From Escherichia phage kaaroe, in the sequence record MN850574.1: a stretch of DNA of 64,000 nucleotides; one strand, given 5' to 3'. Position 1 is the stretch's first letter. Each line of letters starts with the position of its first letter. This document shows, piece by piece, positions 6,679 through 62,030 of this stretch. Under the pieces are notes generated by a model, which saw nothing but the letters and a program-made list of their open reading frames with translations, was not told where the DNA came from and did no database searches. The position numbers were made by a program, and so were the translations under genes.

Positions 6679-6703
6679 AGCCATCCTTCGGGGTGGCTTT
6701 TTT
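6679..6703 (+). terminator. rho-independent terminator
   Basis: hairpin AGCCATCC-TTCG-GGGTGGCT plus T-run. Confidence 0.7.
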
Positions 6704-6713
6704 GTTTTTGTGC

Positions 6714-6741
6714 TTGACAGAGCGATTTAGATGCCTATAAT
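6714..6741 (+). promoter_or_regulatory. sigma70-type early promoter (TTGACA-16-TATAAT)
   Basis: TTGACA at 6714, TATAAT at 6736. Confidence 0.65.
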
Positions 6742-6867
6742 GGCACGCATCGACATGCTACTGTCATAGTGAGGCGAAGAAAATATTATGAATATGGGGT
6801 TGAAAATGGCTTTAATAACTGTTACTGTATTATTCGTTGTTGTGTTTATGAATGTATGAGGTGAAGT

Positions 6868-7832: not shown

Positions 7833-7857
7833 AGCCGTCCTTCGGGGCGGCTTTTTT
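7833..7857 (+). terminator. rho-independent terminator
   Basis: hairpin AGCCGTCC-TTCG-GGGCGGCT plus TTTTTT. Confidence 0.7.
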
Positions 7858-7883
7858 GTATCTGTTATTAACATAATTTTAGT

Positions 7884-7969
7884 TTACATGTGCACAATAT
7901 TAATACTGTTTGATTAAATTATGATCAAAACGAAGAAAGATCTTTAGAACATAGAAAATGTATCTTTGG
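7884..7969 (+). repeat. intergenic repeat copy A (TTTACATG...GATTAAATTATGATCAAAACGAAGAAAGATCTTTAGAA)
   Basis: near-identical to copies at 8050-8120 and 44124-44167; contains palindrome AAAGATCTTT. Confidence 0.6.
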
Positions 7970-8049
7970 TTAATTATTAATCACTACATATTGTAACACA
8001 AATGTTATACTCCGTAGGAGTTCGCGAAGCGATATCCTTTTGTGTAGTT

Positions 8050-8120
8050 TTTACATGTATGATTAAATTATGATCAAAACGAAGACTTATCTTATAGAAT
8101 AATAAAAATTTGTTTCGAAC
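8050..8120 (+). repeat. intergenic repeat copy B
   Basis: shares TTTACATGT...GATTAAATTATGATCAAAACGAAGA and TAGAATAATAAAAATTTGTTTCG with copies A and C. Confidence 0.6.
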
Positions 8121-8238
8121 ATTTATTAATCAATTACTGGAAGTGTTTTTAATGCTCGCTGTGCTCGCTTCCGCTACGCGGATACTTGTATTTGTTATTA
8201 ACTTGTAGTATGATATTGCTTTCTATGGAGGAAATATT

Positions 8239-10305: not shown

Positions 10306-10667
10306 GCATTCCTCCTTATGGAGAATTTTGGGTTAATTCGGGGAACAGCGTACCAAAACCAAAAATTACCGCTAGCGTCACACTGGAATGTCATAACAAG
10401 GTCGGCATACACCAGATCTTGTATATCTACCAAATCTATCCGACCCAATATCAACATGAACGCTCATTTCATTCATTGGTCCCTTTGCCATGCAGTTACT
10501 ACGAAAATTGGTGGAATTGTTTGTTGTGTTTTAATAAATCCAGCATCAAAAGAAATCACATATCATAGCCACCGGATTTAGGCTAGCAACCCACCGATGT
10601 TCTGCATCTTCCTGTCTTTGTTGTGTGTATCTATTTTCGCTCACAATAGAATATAGGCTTGCAACCT

Positions 10668-10675
10668 TATTTATA
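10668..10675 (-). promoter_or_regulatory. T4-type late promoter motif TATAAATA
   Basis: exact motif on minus strand in the gp23-gp24 spacer. Confidence 0.4.
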
Positions 10676-10690
10676 ACGGGTTATAATACG

Positions 10691-10720
10691 CAAAAAGGGA
10701 AGACCCTTTCGAGTCTTCCC
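10691..10720 (-). terminator. rho-independent terminator after gp23
   Basis: hairpin GGGAAGAC-N8-GTCTTCCC with T-run on minus strand, immediately 3' of gp23. Confidence 0.65.
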
Positions 10721-10805
10721 TTTGGAATTAACACTTTACACTGTCATAAGGTTTATGATAAGTCGGGTATTGCACCCGACCGGAGTTTTTCAGGAATGGC
10801 TTATA

Positions 10806-12404
10806 TTAGCAACCTTTAACCCATACACGACGGAAGTATGCGTTTTTACCTACGCTGTCTTTGCTCAACATACCGGAGGTGATGCGAGCGGACGGTGCCT
10901 GGGATTTGCTGTCTGCAAACGGGTTAATGCCGATGCCATAGCGAGTCTTGAAGCCCAGAACCGGGTGGAAAGACTGCGGGTCAGTTGCACGCAGCGGAGT
11001 CAGAGCAACATACGGAGCATAGTAGATACCAGCATCCATTTCGTTGTCGCCTTTGTAACCTACGGTGAAGTAGTCTTGACGAGCATACTGGTCGATGAAC
11101 ACTTTGTACTTACCAGCCAGAACACCAGCGAAAACAGCTTTAGTGGTGTCGGTATTCAGACCTTTTGCAGCACCCTGCATAGCAAGACTGATACCCTGAT
11201 CAGCAGAAGCCAGAATGTTTACAACGTTACGGGAAGCGATAACAAAGTTACCAGCACCGCGACCAGTCTGACGAGCGATTTCAGCAGCTTCTTTGTCGAT
11301 CTGGTAGATCAGAGATTTGAAGGATTCACCAGCCCAACGAGCACCGCGAGTATCGATCGGGTCTTGCAGGTCAAATACACCAGCTTTAGAACCAACGGTC
11401 TGAGTCATACCAGTCTTACCAACCTGAGCGGTAAAGTTGATGACGTCAACGATTTCACGGTTGATTTCCAGCAGAACTTCGTTAGCCAGGATAGCATTCA
11501 GTTCAGCGTCAGCATCCATACCGTGTACAGCACGCAGATCCTGCGCAACTTCGATAGAGTAACGGGCTTTCAGTTGGCGAGATTTCGCTTCAACAACCTG
11601 TTTGTCAATACGCATTGACATTTCAGCCCACGGGTTATTGCTGGAACCGTTAAAGCCTTCCTGAATTTCGGCAATGGAAGTCGCCATACCGAAAGCGATT
11701 TCAGCCAGTTTACCTTCTTCCATCAGCTTCATGACAACTTCATCATCTGACTCGCTGCCAGCTTGGGTCGGGGTTACTTGTCCTGCGGTAACGTTTTGCA
11801 GATATGCAATGCCAGTTTCTGCGAAGGTGTGGTGTACAATATCACCTGCTTCAATCGGAGTGCTGAGAGTTAGTTTAGCGAATGCAGTACCAGTTGGTGA
11901 ACCTACAGTTGCACCTTTAGCAGCAAGAGAGCTATGGAACGCATCAGGTGCATACATCGGATGGAATGCTTCACGAACATTCTGAGCATTGCCACCTGCC
12001 AGCGGATCTGGACCGTATACAGAACGGATTGCAAAGATCTGGCTAGTCGGAGTGCTCATCGGCTGAACGCCACAAATATCAAATGCGATCAGGTTAGGAA
12101 TAGCACGGCGAACCATACCGATAACAGCCGGACCTACGTTAGTGATTGCACCAGTGGTCTGACCAGCCGCGATCTGAGATGCGTCATAACCGTGGTCGCC
12201 AGCAACTTCGGCTTCTGCGATAAAGCCACCGAATGCTTCAACAACTTTTTCATCCTTATAGATCGGGTCTACAGCAAAATCCGCTTCCTGAGATTCCAGA
12301 ATTTTAGCAACCAGTTTCTGCTTAGACGCAGTTGCGATTTCCGGCAGTTTTTCGTTCTCCAGCAGCGGGGACCATTTTTCCATCAGTTCTTTGGTAGTTT
12401 TCAT
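10806..12404 (-). CDS. 23: major capsid protein gp23
   Basis: 532 aa; long identical stretches with T4 gp23 (MVRRAIPNLIAFDICGVQPM, GARWAGESFK, GIYYAPYVALTPL, KTRYGIGINPFA). Confidence 0.97.
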   Translation of the reverse strand: MKTTKELMEKWSPLLENEKLPEIATASKQKLVAKILESQEADFAVDPIYKDEKVVEAFGGFIAEAEVAGDHGYDASQIAAGQTTGAITNVGPAVIGMVRRAIPNLIAFDICGVQPMSTPTSQIFAIRSVYGPDPLAGGNAQNVREAFHPMYAPDAFHSSLAAKGATVGSPTGTAFAKLTLSTPIEAGDIVHHTFAETGIAYLQNVTAGQVTPTQAGSESDDEVVMKLMEEGKLAEIAFGMATSIAEIQEGFNGSSNNPWAEMSMRIDKQVVEAKSRQLKARYSIEVAQDLRAVHGMDADAELNAILANEVLLEINREIVDVINFTAQVGKTGMTQTVGSKAGVFDLQDPIDTRGARWAGESFKSLIYQIDKEAAEIARQTGRGAGNFVIASRNVVNILASADQGISLAMQGAAKGLNTDTTKAVFAGVLAGKYKVFIDQYARQDYFTVGYKGDNEMDAGIYYAPYVALTPLRATDPQSFHPVLGFKTRYGIGINPFADSKSQAPSARITSGMLSKDSVGKNAYFRRVWVKGC

Positions 12405-44054: not shown

Positions 44055-44123
44055 AAGAAGTCCTCGTATAGTACCCGTTTTATTTATTACTGTATAAAAA
44101 TATAGTTATTGGTTAAAACATAA

Positions 44124-44167
44124 CCAAAACGAAGAAAGATCTTTAGAATAATAAAAATTTGTTTCGG
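44124..44167 (+). repeat. intergenic repeat copy C (CAAAACGAAGAAAGATCTTTAGAATAATAAAAATTTGTTTCGG)
   Basis: matches copies at 7884-7969 and 8050-8120; followed by two short hairpins. Confidence 0.6.
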
Positions 44168-44243
44168 TTAAAAAGTAGTCAGTGCCTACGGCACGTCGCA
44201 AAGCGACAATTGTTAATAAATATTTTCATTTGAGGAATCAGTA

Positions 44244-58995: not shown

Positions 58996-59228
58996 TGTTA
59001 GTCACCGTGGGATGCATACCAGAAGTAAAAGAATACTAGCATTAACACAACTATTTGGCTTCCTCATACTTTCGCGTGTTCAATTACTGCCGAATCGGAA
59101 GACCCGTCTAAGACGAGGAAGGGTTATCATTGGAAAGGGATGGTGAATTGGTTACTATGTTTAACTAGTTTAGCAAAGGTCGATTCAAACACTACTATAC
59201 AAATGGACGTGAATAAAATATAATCAAA

Positions 59229-59256
59229 AGCCATCCGAAAGGGTGGCTTTTTCGTT
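59229..59256 (+). terminator. rho-independent terminator
   Basis: hairpin AGCCATCC-GAAA-GGGTGGCT plus T-run. Confidence 0.7.
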
Positions 59257-59264
59257 TTTAGGTG

Positions 59265-59293
59265 TTGACAACCGGAATAGGGTATATCATAAT
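59265..59293 (+). promoter_or_regulatory. early promoter module TTGACA-17-CATAAT
   Basis: read directly. Confidence 0.7.
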
Positions 59294-59322
59294 GCACACA
59301 TCGACAACAAAGGAGAATCAAA

Positions 59323-60208: not shown

Positions 60209-60489
60209 AAGACACAAACGAATTTAACGGTATTAAGGTAAGCCCGAATTTTATTGTTCCATCACTGGTGACTAAGCTGAATGGTCATATGGTCGCTTTG
60301 TCTTCCACACCGCCAGAATCAGGAAAGTTTATCACTATCGTAGTTTATGCGGGGCAAATTTTCTCTCATGATTGCTGCATGAAAAATGGTCAGTTGATGG
60401 TTGCAAATTATGACTATGGAGACCTTGAATGGGAAGTTTTAGATCTGGCTAAAAGTGCTGAAATTCTGGGCTATATTCGATTAGTTTAA
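60205..60489 (+). CDS. hypothetical protein
   Basis: 94 aa, ATGA overlap. Confidence 0.5.
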   Translation: MKDTNEFNGIKVSPNFIVPSLVTKLNGHMVALSSTPPESGKFITIVVYAGQIFSHDCCMKNGQLMVANYDYGDLEWEVLDLAKSAEILGYIRLV

Positions 60490-60506
60490 AAATTTCTTAG
60501 AAAGTG

Positions 60507-60535
60507 TTGACAGCGATCCGGTGTTATTGCATAAT
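60507..60535 (+). promoter_or_regulatory. early promoter module TTGACA-17-CATAAT
   Basis: followed by CATCGAAACGAGATAC and RBS. Confidence 0.7.
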
Positions 60536-60576
60536 ACACCCATCGAAACGAGATACACTTTCTAGGAGAATCAAAA

Positions 60577-61638: not shown

Positions 61639-61644
61639 TTTTAT

Positions 61645-61671
61645 GGGCTATCCTTCGGGGTAGCCTTTTTT
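61645..61671 (+). terminator. rho-independent terminator
   Basis: hairpin GGGCTATCC-TTCG-GGGTAGCC plus T-run. Confidence 0.7.
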
Positions 61672-61682
61672 GTTTTTGGGTG

Positions 61683-61710
61683 TTGACAAAGATAATCACA
61701 ATGCTATAAT
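61683..61710 (+). promoter_or_regulatory. early promoter TTGACA-16-TATAAT
   Basis: read directly. Confidence 0.7.
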
Positions 61711-61739
61711 GCACGCATACCAACTAAGGAGAATCAAAG

Positions 61740-62030
61740 ATGACCACTGAACAATTAATCAAGCATATCCGAAACATCATCTGGGATCTGTCTGGTGATA
61801 AAGAGGAACAAGCTGAACGCATTTTGGCTAAACTCTATAAGCGCCGTGACCGTGGATTATCAGCAAAGAAAGTAGAAACTTTCAAAGAGTTATCTTTCAT
61901 CGAAGCTAAAAAGGATGGATTAATTTATCAGTTGACAGATGGTTATTGGTGCTATGATAATACTCGCTATGACACCGCGACCGATGCATTAAAAGCATGT
62001 AATGACCATCTTCGCAAAACTACAATTTGA
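61740..62030 (+). CDS. hypothetical protein
   Basis: 96 aa. Confidence 0.5.
   Translation: MTTEQLIKHIRNIIWDLSGDKEEQAERILAKLYKRRDRGLSAKKVETFKELSFIEAKKDGLIYQLTDGYWCYDNTRYDTATDALKACNDHLRKTTI

What the first reader, a model, noticed from the sequence alone, without database searches (positions are those of the whole stretch)
7884..8120. Duplicated intergenic element with palindrome AAAGATCTTT, present in a third copy upstream of gp3
Seen in sequence: two tandem copies in the 400-bp gap before the DprA-like gene share TTTACATGT...GATTAAATTATGATCAAAACGAAGA(A/C)...TAGAA(T/C)A...AAAAT. Copy B and a third copy at 44124-44167 additionally share TAATAAAAATTTGTTTCG, and small hairpins follow in both loci. 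The elements lack canonical sigma70 or TATAAATA motifs. Inference: binding site for a phage regulator (middle-mode promoter?), a small RNA, or a footprint of a mobile endonuclease target.
Basis: seen in the sequence. Interest (0 to 1): 0.45.

Follow-up and report, generated by a model that had tools for sequence, protein, structure and literature searches.

The report
Repeated AT-rich hairpin module in Krischvirus
The repeat is real: it is a roughly 100-150-base DNA module that folds into one long AT-rich hairpin plus small GC-rich mini-hairpins, occurs four times in every RB49-like coliphage and once in an E. coli prophage, and looks more like a DNA-unwinding or replication-start signal, or a structured RNA, than a promoter.

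Summary
The window is a Krischvirus (RB49/Phi1-like T4-type coliphage). Copies A (7883-8032), B (8050-8182) and C (44110-44207) are real. A fourth copy, D, lies outside the window between gp35 and gp36. All 58 Krischvirus records hold four copies.

The conserved unit is not the AAAGATCTTT palindrome and not a promoter. It is a roughly 73-nt AT-rich bulged hairpin: a 6-bp outer stem, 5x5 internal loop, an inner stem of up to 13 bp, and an invariant ATCTT at the apex. One or two GC-rich triloop mini-hairpins (C-GNA-G type, including GCGAAGC) follow it.

A homologue sits in the 1.27-kb non-coding, iteron-bearing gap of a 35-kb prophage integrated in hicB, found in about 1% of complete E. coli genomes. 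Divergent prophage variants keep the stems through compensatory changes.

There is no Rfam match. The copies occupy the most AT-rich spots of the phage genome. A second T4-like genus (Pseudotevenvirus) carries analogous AT-centred palindromes with GCGAAGC upstream of gp3 and directly upstream of uvsY, the position of T4 oriF.

Best reading (about 0.35): a single-strand hairpin and unwinding signal of origin or ssi type. Main rival (about 0.3): a cis-acting structured RNA.

The parts
7833..7852 (+). Intrinsic terminator of the upstream gene (Phi1 ORF165 homologue), UUCG-type loop plus T-run. This is context: the element starts after it.
   Evidence: 8 pairs, 6 GC, followed by TTTTT; annotated as a terminator in GEC-3S
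7883..7910 (+). Left flank of copy A. It holds TTTACATGT (shared with B) and a weak promoter-like pair, TTTACA-15 nt-TACTGT, that ends 1 nt before the hairpin.
   Evidence: not found by the consensus scan; inference only
7911..7983 (+). Copy A long AT-rich hairpin. The outer stem is TGATTA/TAATCA, with 5x5 internal loop, an inner stem, and an apex holding AAAGATCTTT and the invariant ATCTT.
   Evidence: CM hit 7909-7985, 76.9 bits; fold; pair counts
7992..8009 (+). An extra AT-rich small hairpin found only in copy A (TGTAACA-CAAA-TGTTATA).
8009..8032 (+). Copy A tandem mini-hairpins: ACTCC-GTA-GGAGT and TCGC-GAA-GCGA (contains GCGAAGC).
8050..8059 (+). Left flank of copy B (TTTACATGT). Relative to A, 20 nt are missing here.
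8060..8132 (+). Copy B long AT-rich hairpin. Its arms were already reported as inverted repeat I1.
   Evidence: I1: 31-nt arms, 71% complementary; CM hit 8058-8134, 67.9 bits
8170..8182 (+). Copy B single mini-hairpin TCCGC-TAC-GCGGA. The GTA triloop is on the minus strand.
8186..8214 (+). Probable early promoter of the DprA-like gene (TTGTAT-17 nt-TATGAT). It lies downstream of the element, so it is context.
   Evidence: below the consensus-scan threshold; inference
44110..44181 (+). Copy C long AT-rich hairpin. The outer stem TGGTTA/TAGTCA has two G-T pairs. The inner stem is TAACCAAAAC/GTTTCGGTTA.
   Evidence: CM hit 44108-44183, 83.5 bits
44182..44207 (+). Copy C tandem mini-hairpins: GTGCC-TAC-GGCAC and GTCGC-AAA-GCGAC.
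44212..44213 (.). Junction at which a related metagenomic Krischvirus carries a 590-nt homing endonuclease (HNH-AP2) cassette.

Best explanation
What is shown: the repeat is a hairpin module that is conserved in shape more than in sequence, with a modest preference for folding on the window + strand. It consists of a roughly 73-nt, 75-82% A+T bulged hairpin with an invariant ATCTT at its apex. One or two GC-rich triloop mini-hairpins of the C-GNA-G type follow 0-38 nt later.

What is inferred: I think it most likely works as DNA. It would be an easily melted, palindromic unwinding element. When opened by supercoiling, nearby transcription or a passing fork, its + strand would fold into the long hairpin plus the nuclease- and SSB-resistant mini-hairpins. 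That structure would mark a place where replication or priming proteins, or recombination-dependent replication, can start. In other words, it would be an origin-associated or single-strand-initiation-like signal.

Krischviruses have no annotated motA or asiA and so lack T4's middle-promoter origins. They carry four such modules at the edges of, or inside, late-gene blocks. A temperate E. coli phage carries one beside its variable iterons. Hairpin formation is supported by covariation. Every step after hairpin formation is inference.
For: (1) Structure. On 19 distinct sequences, 87.8% of cells pair, against 31-56% when partners are slid. Six pairs change on both sides (0 of 500 shuffles reach this). 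The covariation score is 0.179 against 0.094. Divergent prophage variants rebuild the inner stem with different sequences: CATCAAAAGAGAG/CTCTTTTGATG and CAAACGTA/TACGTTTG. Mini-hairpin stems differ completely between copies but always pair.
(2) DNA flavour. The loops are GAA, GTA, GCA or AAA closed by C-G, including exact GCGAAGC and CCGAAGG. Such 'mini-hairpin DNA' is extraordinarily stable as DNA and much less so as RNA. It occurs at the G4 complementary-strand origin, in RSF1010 ssiA and in N4 hairpin promoters (PMC13037366). The same genome's RNA terminators use UUCG or GAAA tetraloops with T-runs.
(3) Unwinding. The three lowest-GC 80-nt windows of the 164-kb Phi1 genome are at C, at B and just upstream of A. 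D ranks sixth.
(4) Position. The copies lie between an upstream terminator and the downstream promoter, so they are poorly placed for an mRNA element. They are near strand-switch points or late-gene blocks, as are T4 oriE, oriF and oriG (PMC3016281).
(5) Prophage. The element is the nearly invariant block of a mosaic 1.27-kb gap whose iterons differ between variants.
(6) Parallel. Pseudotevenvirus GAP161 has AT-centred 170-185-nt palindromes with GCGAAGC upstream of gp3 and directly upstream of uvsY. T4 oriF is annotated at the uvsY 5' end. These palindromes share 16- and 15-nt exact strings with the prophage gap.
(7) No motA or asiA gene is annotated in Phi1.
Against: There is no direct evidence of replication initiation. 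T4 origins share no sequence motif, and oriF and oriG have the promoter upstream of the unwinding element, whereas here the recognisable promoters lie downstream and point away. The DnaG recognition triplet CTG is not conserved 3' of the hairpins. Krischvirus has no copy at uvsY; C lies 3.4 kb from the gene 5 start and D 5 kb from the gene 34 start in Phi1, so neither sits at the T4 oriE- or oriG-equivalent position, and the synteny is only approximate. The strand bias is modest: 87.8% against 82.0% paired, 32 G-T against 11 A-C cells. The covariation would equally fit an RNA. The prophage iterons have not been shown to be an origin, and no replication protein was recognised next to them. AT-richness is also typical of ordinary intergenic DNA.
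Confidence: 0.35

Rival explanations
1. It is a cis-acting structured RNA, or a small RNA, made from the + strand. The long hairpin would be a processing or regulatory signal, for example an RNase III- or RNase E-type site as in the T7 intercistronic hairpins. Alternatively it would be a leader that controls read-through. The GC mini-hairpins would then protect the 5' end of the downstream fragment.
For: Compensatory changes keep the stems, and G-U pairs outnumber A-C pairs 32 to 11 on the + strand. All four phage copies point in the direction of local transcription. The two-stem-plus-internal-loop shape resembles T7 RNase III sites (my own knowledge). In the prophage, a weak promoter-like pair with a covarying hairpin in its spacer (TTCAGT-17 nt-TAGATT or CATGAT) ends 1 nt before the hairpin. 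TACTGT does the same in copy A. The last mini-hairpin followed by T-rich sequence scores as terminator-like in B and C.
Against: No Rfam family matches, even at E<=10. No consensus promoter precedes the element and no clear terminator follows it. A and D come straight after strong terminators. The next gene's promoter lies downstream of the element, so its main mRNA would not contain it. A start 7 nt after the candidate -10 would remove the outer stem. The triloops are of the type that is weak in RNA.
Confidence: 0.3
2. It is a recombinogenic or selfish palindromic repeat with no dedicated function, akin to PeSL cassettes or a MITE. It would persist because it provides portable homology and hairpins that provoke breaks and gene conversion. 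It would therefore mark junctions where modules are swapped.
For: C and D are 95% alike although they sit in unrelated flanks, and variants of C and D exchange sequence patches. A homing endonuclease cassette is inserted exactly at the 3' edge of C in one relative. Phi1 has another insert at the same locus. In the prophage family the block is invariant while both flanks are mosaic. The two phages also share an LprI-family gene. PeSLs in these same phages are proposed to mediate shuffling (PMC2839356).
Against: The copy number is fixed at four, at the same sites, in all 58 genomes. There are no target-site duplications and no transposase. The stems evolve by compensatory change, which implies selection on folding. 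The loops and spacers are near-invariant across about 56 E. coli genomes, which implies more than neutral persistence.
Confidence: 0.15
3. It is a promoter or operator: a binding site for a phage or host regulator, possibly a substitute for T4 middle-mode promoters.
For: It sits in AT-rich DNA upstream of genes. TAGAAT (5 of 6 matches to the -10 consensus) lies 17 nt after TGATCA, TAACCA or TCATCA in B, C, D and most prophage copies. The 10-bp palindrome is present in A, C and D.
Against: The consensus scans find nothing. TAGAAT becomes TAGAAC in A and is lost in L073, L074 and L079. The '-35' and 'spacer' bases are stem arms that covary with downstream bases. The palindrome is absent from B and from most prophage copies. 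True early promoters in this genome are near-consensus and look quite different.
Confidence: 0.08
4. It is the remnant or recognition region of a free-standing homing endonuclease.
For: An HNH-AP2 gene is inserted next to copy C in one metagenomic relative. Seg- and HNH-type genes are common in these phages.
Against: Only one of the four loci, in one genome, has such a gene. The element is present whether or not the endonuclease gene is there. Stem covariation and the prophage homologue have nothing to do with homing.
Confidence: 0.03

Closest known systems
[quoted passage not shown]
   Same: It is a module of about 100 bp dominated by an extremely A+T-rich segment. It is present in a few copies per genome, near late-gene blocks and strand-switch regions. 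The non-template strand is the one expected to be single-stranded (PMC3016281). The analogous palindrome in Pseudotevenvirus lies directly upstream of uvsY, where T4 oriF is annotated.
   Different: There is no MotA box and no motA or asiA gene. No clear promoter lies upstream. T4 unwinding elements need no specific sequence or hairpin, whereas here folding is conserved by covariation. The loci are only roughly syntenic for Krischvirus. No functional data exist.
Single-strand initiation signals and mini-hairpin DNA: G4 complementary-strand origin, RSF1010 ssiA/ssiB, N4 virion-RNA-polymerase hairpin promoters
   Same: It has clusters of short GC stems capped by GNA triloops, including exact GCGAAGC and CCGAAGG. 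There is a modest strand bias. In the prophage it lies next to iterons, with further mini-hairpins on the opposite strand, as in the RSF1010 oriV layout.
   Different: DnaG's CTG is not conserved 3' of the hairpins. No RepB'-like primase or N4-type polymerase is annotated. The long AT-rich hairpin has no counterpart in those signals.
PeSLs (promoter-early stem-loop cassettes) of RB49 and Phi1 (Arbiol et al. 2010, PMC2839356)
   Same: It occurs in the same phages. It is a repeated intergenic cassette that combines AT-rich DNA with stem-loops, and it is associated with insertion and replacement junctions.
   Different: PeSLs carry near-consensus TTGACA-17 nt-TATAAT promoters, number about 50 per genome, and lie mostly upstream of ORFans in hyperplastic regions. 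This element has no such promoter, has four fixed copies, and includes a 73-nt hairpin.
T7-type RNase III processing hairpins in intercistronic RNA (recalled from my own knowledge)
   Same: It is a repeated intergenic hairpin with two stems separated by an internal loop.
   Different: It is placed after terminators and before promoters. It has a large 25-nt apex with a conserved ATCTT, and it has trailing mini-hairpins. Cleavage has not been tested.

Membership tests
PeSL (promoter-early stem-loop) | Sigma-70 consensus promoter (-35 TTGACA, 17 nt, -10 TATAAT) | tested here: not met
   The scans find none in the element. Genuine PeSL-type promoters in the same window score 10-12 of 12.
PeSL (promoter-early stem-loop) | G/C-rich stem-loop acting as a terminator, within or next to the promoter | tested here: inconclusive
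   GC mini-hairpins are present, but they have 4-6 bp stems and weak T-tracts. Only B and C are flagged as terminator-like.
PeSL (promoter-early stem-loop) | About 50 copies, mostly upstream of ORFans in hyperplastic regions | tested here: not met
   There are four copies per genome at fixed sites next to gp3, gp36 and the DprA-like gene.
T4-type R-loop origin (oriF/oriG) | MotA-dependent middle promoter upstream | tested here: not met
   I saw no TGCTT MotA-box motif when reading the sequences; this was not a dedicated scan. No motA or asiA gene is annotated in Phi1.
T4-type R-loop origin (oriF/oriG) | A+T-rich unwinding element of about 50 bp or more | tested here: met
   The hairpins have 18-26% GC. 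The loci rank 1, 2, 3 and 6 for lowest-GC 80-nt windows in the Phi1 genome.
T4-type R-loop origin (oriF/oriG) | Drives phage-dependent autonomous replication; persistent R-loop | not testable with these tools
   This needs plasmid replication assays, 2D gels or nascent-strand mapping.
Single-strand initiation signal (G4 type or ssiA type) | Stable hairpins, including GNA mini-hairpins, on one strand | tested here: met
   The strand preference is modest.
Single-strand initiation signal (G4 type or ssiA type) | Primase recognition site (DnaG 5'-CTG-3') just 3' of the hairpin | tested here: not met
   No CTG is conserved after the last mini-hairpin in A, B, C, D or the prophage copy (sequences). 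A GTT, the T4-primase triplet, occurs within TTGTT 4-13 nt after the last mini-hairpin in B, C and D; A has only a GTT further downstream. This is weak evidence.
Single-strand initiation signal (G4 type or ssiA type) | Primer synthesis on the single strand in vitro | not testable with these tools
   This is a biochemical assay.
Any Rfam RNA family | Covariance-model score at or above the gathering threshold | tested here: not met
   There are no hits at the gathering threshold. At E<=10 the only hits are chance-level.
T7-type RNase III site | Two helical segments flanking an internal loop, in transcribed intercistronic RNA | tested here: inconclusive
   The shape is met. Transcription is doubtful because of the upstream terminators.
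N4-type hairpin promoter | 5-7 bp stem with a 3-nt GNA loop, plus a virion RNA polymerase gene | tested here: not met
   The hairpin geometry is met. No giant polymerase gene is annotated in Phi1 or in the prophage.
MITE or transposon remnant | Terminal inverted repeats with target-site duplication; variable copy number and location | tested here: not met
   There are fixed sites in 58 genomes. No duplication is seen at the edges.

The most novel reading that the evidence does not exclude
The hairpin modules are the replication start sites of the MotA-less RB49-type phages. The same portable 'unwinding hairpin plus mini-hairpin' cassette would serve as the host-facing part of an iteron origin in a temperate E. 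coli phage. Under this reading, origin modules are exchanged between virulent T4-like and temperate phages. Analogous palindromes would mark oriE- and oriF-equivalent loci in other T4-like genera.
Probability: 0.25. Interest if true: 0.8.

Novelty: new variant of a known kind. Interest (0 to 1): 0.58.

Why it matters
Replication origins are known only for T4 itself. They depend on MotA middle promoters, which the RB49 group lacks, so where and how these phages start replication is an open question.

This work provides a short, precisely delimited, covariation-supported module with four fixed copies. That gives a directly testable candidate, through plasmid replication assays, nascent-strand mapping and stem-swap mutants.

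If the module turns out to be an RNA instead, it is a new structured RNA class shared by a virulent and a temperate coliphage.

Either way, the results document exchange of non-coding functional DNA between very different phages of one host. They also flag similar palindromes in another T4-like genus.

Tried and rejected
Rfam: gathering and permissive searches of the window and the prophage loci found nothing.

Promoter and terminator consensus scans: no promoter lies in the element.

GTDB genome scan with the core pattern: 29 hits, all chance matches in unrelated taxa or coding DNA.

Second IMG/VR scan with a structure-based pattern: it found only more prophage variants plus chance hits. The best-folding new hit (L090) is a mitovirus-like contig.

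Plasmid collection: no match.

Covariance model R1: no further copies in the Phi1 genome, the window or the prophage. Nothing was found upstream of gp3 in Karamvirus EnC15 or GAP161.

Pfam and PHROGs on the prophage neighbours: only a Rha/Ant-like regulator and a small terminase were recognised, and no replication protein.

Readings considered from the sequence and dropped:
- A conserved mini-ORF or type I toxin. Small ORFs cross the hairpins in A and B only.
- A retron msr/msd. There is no reverse transcriptase.
- A CRISPR-repeat mimic. The C/D hairpin resembles a type I-F repeat stem, but the loop length and the other copies do not fit.
- IHF, DnaA, Fis or CRP boxes. None is conserved.
- A minus-strand reading (5' leader of ORF130 or of the prophage Ant operon). 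It fits only one of the four phage copies.

The '3 places per record' reported for the GAP161 element is probably two loci, with the palindromic one matching on both strands. No third copy was found in 50-178 kb. The first 50 kb were not checked.

Literature searches found no description of the element and no Krischvirus transcriptome.

Full report
IDENTITY OF THE WINDOW. The 1-kb stretch around the finding is 95-100% identical to 58 phage records, all Krischvirus (RB49, Phi1, JSE, GEC-3S and others). The window + strand corresponds to the minus strand of the Phi1 record EF437941; window position plus Phi1 position is about 107,002. I fetched the whole Phi1 genome as L003-L006. In this orientation the genes around the finding are hoc, two small ORFs, 24.3 and ORF165. 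Then comes the 414-nt gap, then ORF164 (the DprA-like gene), all on +, followed by gene 24 on the minus strand. The second locus lies between ORF130 (minus) and gp3 (+).

THE OBSERVATION. A BLAST of the three copies against the whole Phi1 genome found a fourth copy, D, at Phi1 149926-150024. It lies between gp35 and gp36, is 95% identical to C over 99 nt, and is outside the window. A sensitive search of 50,697 phage records found the element only in the 58 Krischvirus records, with four places in nearly all of them (231 places in 58 records; at least one record shows 3). All four copies point the same way as the flanking genes.

ANATOMY.
- Left flank (A and B): TTTACATGT. A has 20 extra nt relative to B.
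- Long hairpin: about 73 nt with 18-26% GC. The outer stem is TGATTA/TAATCA (TGGTTA/TAGTCA in C and D). Five unpaired bases lie on each side. The inner stem has 8-13 pairs. The apex is about 25 nt and contains ATCTT.
- Mini-hairpins: after 0-38 nt come one or two GC-rich mini-hairpins with three-base loops, placed back to back.
 - A: ACTCC-GTA-GGAGT and TCGC-GAA-GCGA.
 - C: GTGCC-TAC-GGCAC and GTCGC-AAA-GCGAC.
 - D: the same first hairpin as C, then TCGC-GAA-GCGA.
 - B: only TCCGC-TAC-GCGGA.
- Surroundings: A and D start just after strong intrinsic terminators of the upstream gene. The recognisable promoter of the next gene lies downstream of the element. For ORF164 this is TTGTAT-17 nt-TATGAT. 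For gp36 it is the late promoter TATAAATA.

A HOMOLOGUE IN AN E. COLI PROPHAGE. An exact-pattern scan of IMG/VR with the core (AAAACGAAGANNNATCTTN{1,2}AGAA) returned the Krischvirus copies, a few chance hits, and 24 loci from prophage contigs mostly of about 30-45 kb, most of them from isolate genomes. These loci carry an obviously related sequence that includes two tandem mini-hairpins, GCAACC-GAA-GGTTGC and ATCCC-GAA-GGGAT. The reciprocal BLAST of the prophage region against all phages hits only Krischvirus copy A (75 nt, 82% identity, E=1e-8).

The prophage is in E. coli. It occurs in 58 of 5,426 complete genomes, and the 155-nt block occurs in 56 of them, mostly at 95% identity or more. 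In O55:H7 strain DEC5A it is a 35.3-kb element that splits hicB. It has a serine recombinase at one end and a lambda-gpA-type large terminase. The element lies in an unannotated 1.27-kb gap between divergent small-gene operons. On one side is a Rha/Ant-like regulator. On the other are 59-aa, 333-aa and 80-aa proteins of unknown function. The gap also holds about eight iterons (TAGTGTAGGTTT) and further mini-hairpins on both strands.

Across 24 prophage variants, the block from ATTCAGTCGG to ACCAATACCTTTC is almost invariant. Both flanks, including the iteron type, are mosaic. The two phages also share an LprI-family gene at 67% amino-acid identity. DNA exchange between them is therefore documented independently.

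THE STEMS ARE UNDER SELECTION; THE 'CORE' IS NOT A MOTIF. Three divergent prophage variants (L073, L074 and L079 types) have a different sequence in the inner stem. In each, the two arms changed together: TACATCAAAAGAG/CTCTTTTGATGTA, CAAACGTA/TACGTTTG and CAAAC-GTAAC/GTTAT-C-TTTG. Within the common prophage type, the only two polymorphic positions of the hairpin are partners: U-G, C-G, U-A and C-A.

On an alignment of 19 distinct sequences, the proposed structure pairs 87.8% of cells. Sliding the 3' partners by 1-3 columns gives 31-56%. Six pairs show changes on both sides (no shuffle of 500 reaches this), and the covariation score is twice the shuffled mean. The shuffle control is known to be permissive for related sequences, so I rely mainly on the slid controls and on the independent rebuilt stems.

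ATCTT at the apex is invariant in all 19 sequences. The palindrome AAAGATCTTT and the -10-like TAGAAT are not conserved. G-T pairs outnumber A-C pairs 32 to 11, giving 87.8% paired on + against 82.0% on the minus strand. This is a preference, not a proof. A covariance model built from the hairpin finds the four phage copies and the prophage copy at 66-100 bits, and finds nothing else in the Phi1 genome or the prophage.

WHAT IT IS NOT.
- Not a known RNA family.
- Not a PeSL. The early promoters of this genome are near-consensus and stereotyped: gtgTTGACA-17 nt-(C/T)ATAAT, then a CATCGAAACGAAAC leader (PMC2839356).
- Not a sigma-70, MotA-type or late promoter. The putative -35 and spacer are stem arms.
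- Not a homing-endonuclease footprint. However, a metagenomic relative has an HNH-AP2 cassette inserted exactly at the 3' edge of C.
- No conserved ORF crosses it.

DNA OR RNA? Several things point to DNA.
- The mini-hairpins are C-GNA-G triloops and include the exact heptamers GCGAAGC and CCGAAGG. A 2026 review of 'mini-hairpin DNA' states that these are extraordinarily stable as DNA and considerably less stable as RNA. It also states that they occur at priming or initiation sites on single-stranded DNA: the G4 complementary-strand origin, RSF1010 ssiA (CCGAAGG) and the N4 hairpin promoters (PMC13037366). The bona fide RNA terminators of this phage use UUCG or GAAA tetraloops, longer stems and T-runs instead.
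- The copies sit after terminators and before promoters.
- The three most AT-rich 80-nt windows of the whole Phi1 genome are at C, at B and just upstream of A. D ranks sixth. The prophage copy is within the top 1% of its 35 kb.
- In the prophage the block adjoins iterons whose type varies with the neighbouring genes. That pattern is expected of an initiator-specific origin next to a host-facing constant part.

T4 origins oriF and oriG are about 100-bp units made of a promoter plus an A+T-rich unwinding element. In them the non-template strand becomes single-stranded and receives the helicase-primase. The active T4 origins lie near strand-switch regions within late-gene territory (PMC3016281). 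Phi1 has no annotated motA or asiA, so it cannot use T4's middle-promoter design.

A PARALLEL IN ANOTHER GENUS. Krischvirus has no close relatives: gp3 identity drops from at least 95% to below 50%. The model found nothing in Karamvirus or Pseudotevenvirus. But the syntenic gap upstream of gp3 in Pseudotevenvirus GAP161, which also follows an opposite-strand gene, contains two GCGAAGC on one strand, an AT-rich centre and one GCGAAGC on the other strand. The whole region folds as a palindrome of about 170 nt.

This GAP161 sequence is conserved in 66 records. It shares exact 16-nt (CGTGAGCGAAGCGAAC) and 15-nt strings with the E. coli prophage gap. It has a second copy in the gap between gene 24 and uvsY, immediately upstream of the uvsY promoter. 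The T4 record annotates oriF at the 5' end of uvsY, and annotates oriE inside gene 5, 3.4 kb from gene 3.

Two T4-like genera therefore carry different AT-centred hairpin or palindrome elements with GNA mini-hairpins at the two ends of the large late-gene block. One of these coincides with the position of a proven T4 origin. This is circumstantial, and part of it was noticed after the fact.

VERDICT. Shown: a real, four-copy, genus-wide repeated module whose folding is maintained by compensatory evolution; a homologue in a temperate E. coli phage; no match to described RNA families or to PeSLs. Inferred: it acts as single-stranded DNA, as an unwinding and hairpin signal of the origin or ssi kind (about 0.35). 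A cis-acting structured RNA remains nearly as likely (about 0.3). A recombinogenic palindromic repeat without dedicated function (about 0.15) and a promoter or operator (about 0.08) are less likely. The experiments that would decide between these are listed under next steps.

Noticed in passing
window 44088-44107: TACTGTATAAAAATATAGTT matches 16 of 20 positions of the LexA/SOS-box consensus (recalled from my own knowledge). It lies directly upstream of copy C, in the divergent ORF130/gp3 gap. The critical CAG half-site reads TAG, so it may be chance.
   Followed up: no
window 44212|44213; L022 (reverse complement) about 10550-11143: A metagenomic Krischvirus contig carries a 590-nt cassette inserted exactly after the second mini-hairpin of copy C. 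The cassette has its own TTGACA promoter and an ORF that I read from its sequence as an HNH-AP2 homing endonuclease (not tested against Pfam). Phi1 has a different insert (ORF130.1, 343 aa) at the same locus, which the window genome lacks.
   Followed up: partly
Phi1 157890-158690 (outside the window); L036 12022-12801; L071 24418-25197: Phi1 ORF262 is 67% identical at the protein level to an LprI-family gene at the right end of the hicB-integrated E. coli prophage. Parts of the match are about 90% identical. This is a second segment shared by the two phages.
   Followed up: partly
L071 15328-24059 (E. coli DEC5A prophage): The prophage's small terminase (phrog_57) and large terminase genes are separated by 6.3 kb holding genes in both orientations. 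This segment includes a Rha/Ant-like regulator and the 1.27-kb non-coding gap. The iterons in that gap differ between prophage variants (TAGTGTAGGTTT, TTGTACAT-type, GGGGA-rich). No replication protein was recognisable.
   Followed up: partly
L103 2215-2482; L104 36326-36480 (GAP161 record 100908-101175 and 136326-136480): Pseudotevenvirus phages carry AT-centred imperfect palindromes of about 170-185 nt with GCGAAGC motifs upstream of gp3 and between gene 24 and uvsY. They are conserved in 66 records and share exact 16- and 15-nt strings with the E. coli prophage gap.
   Followed up: partly
window 6680-6760, 46270-46370, 48260-48360, 49220-49320, 59220-59320, 60460-60560, 61640-61740: The early promoters follow a very stereotyped cassette: a terminator hairpin with a UUCG or GAAA loop, a T-run, gtgTTGACA-17 nt-(C/T)ATAAT, the leader CATCGAAACGAAACAC, and then GGAGAATCAAAATG. 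These are the published PeSLs.
   Followed up: partly
window 8001-8072 and 8152-8208: Small ORFs run through the mini-hairpins of copy A (23 aa) and copy B (18 aa, hydrophobic, MLAVLASATRILVFVINL). They are not conserved in C, D or the prophage, so they are probably not genes.
   Followed up: partly
L019 9325-9345 (minus strand): The prophage gap contains TATAAATA, the T4 late-promoter octamer, about 45 nt upstream of the first leftward gene. It is kept in the variants examined. It is probably an ordinary -10 region.
   Followed up: no
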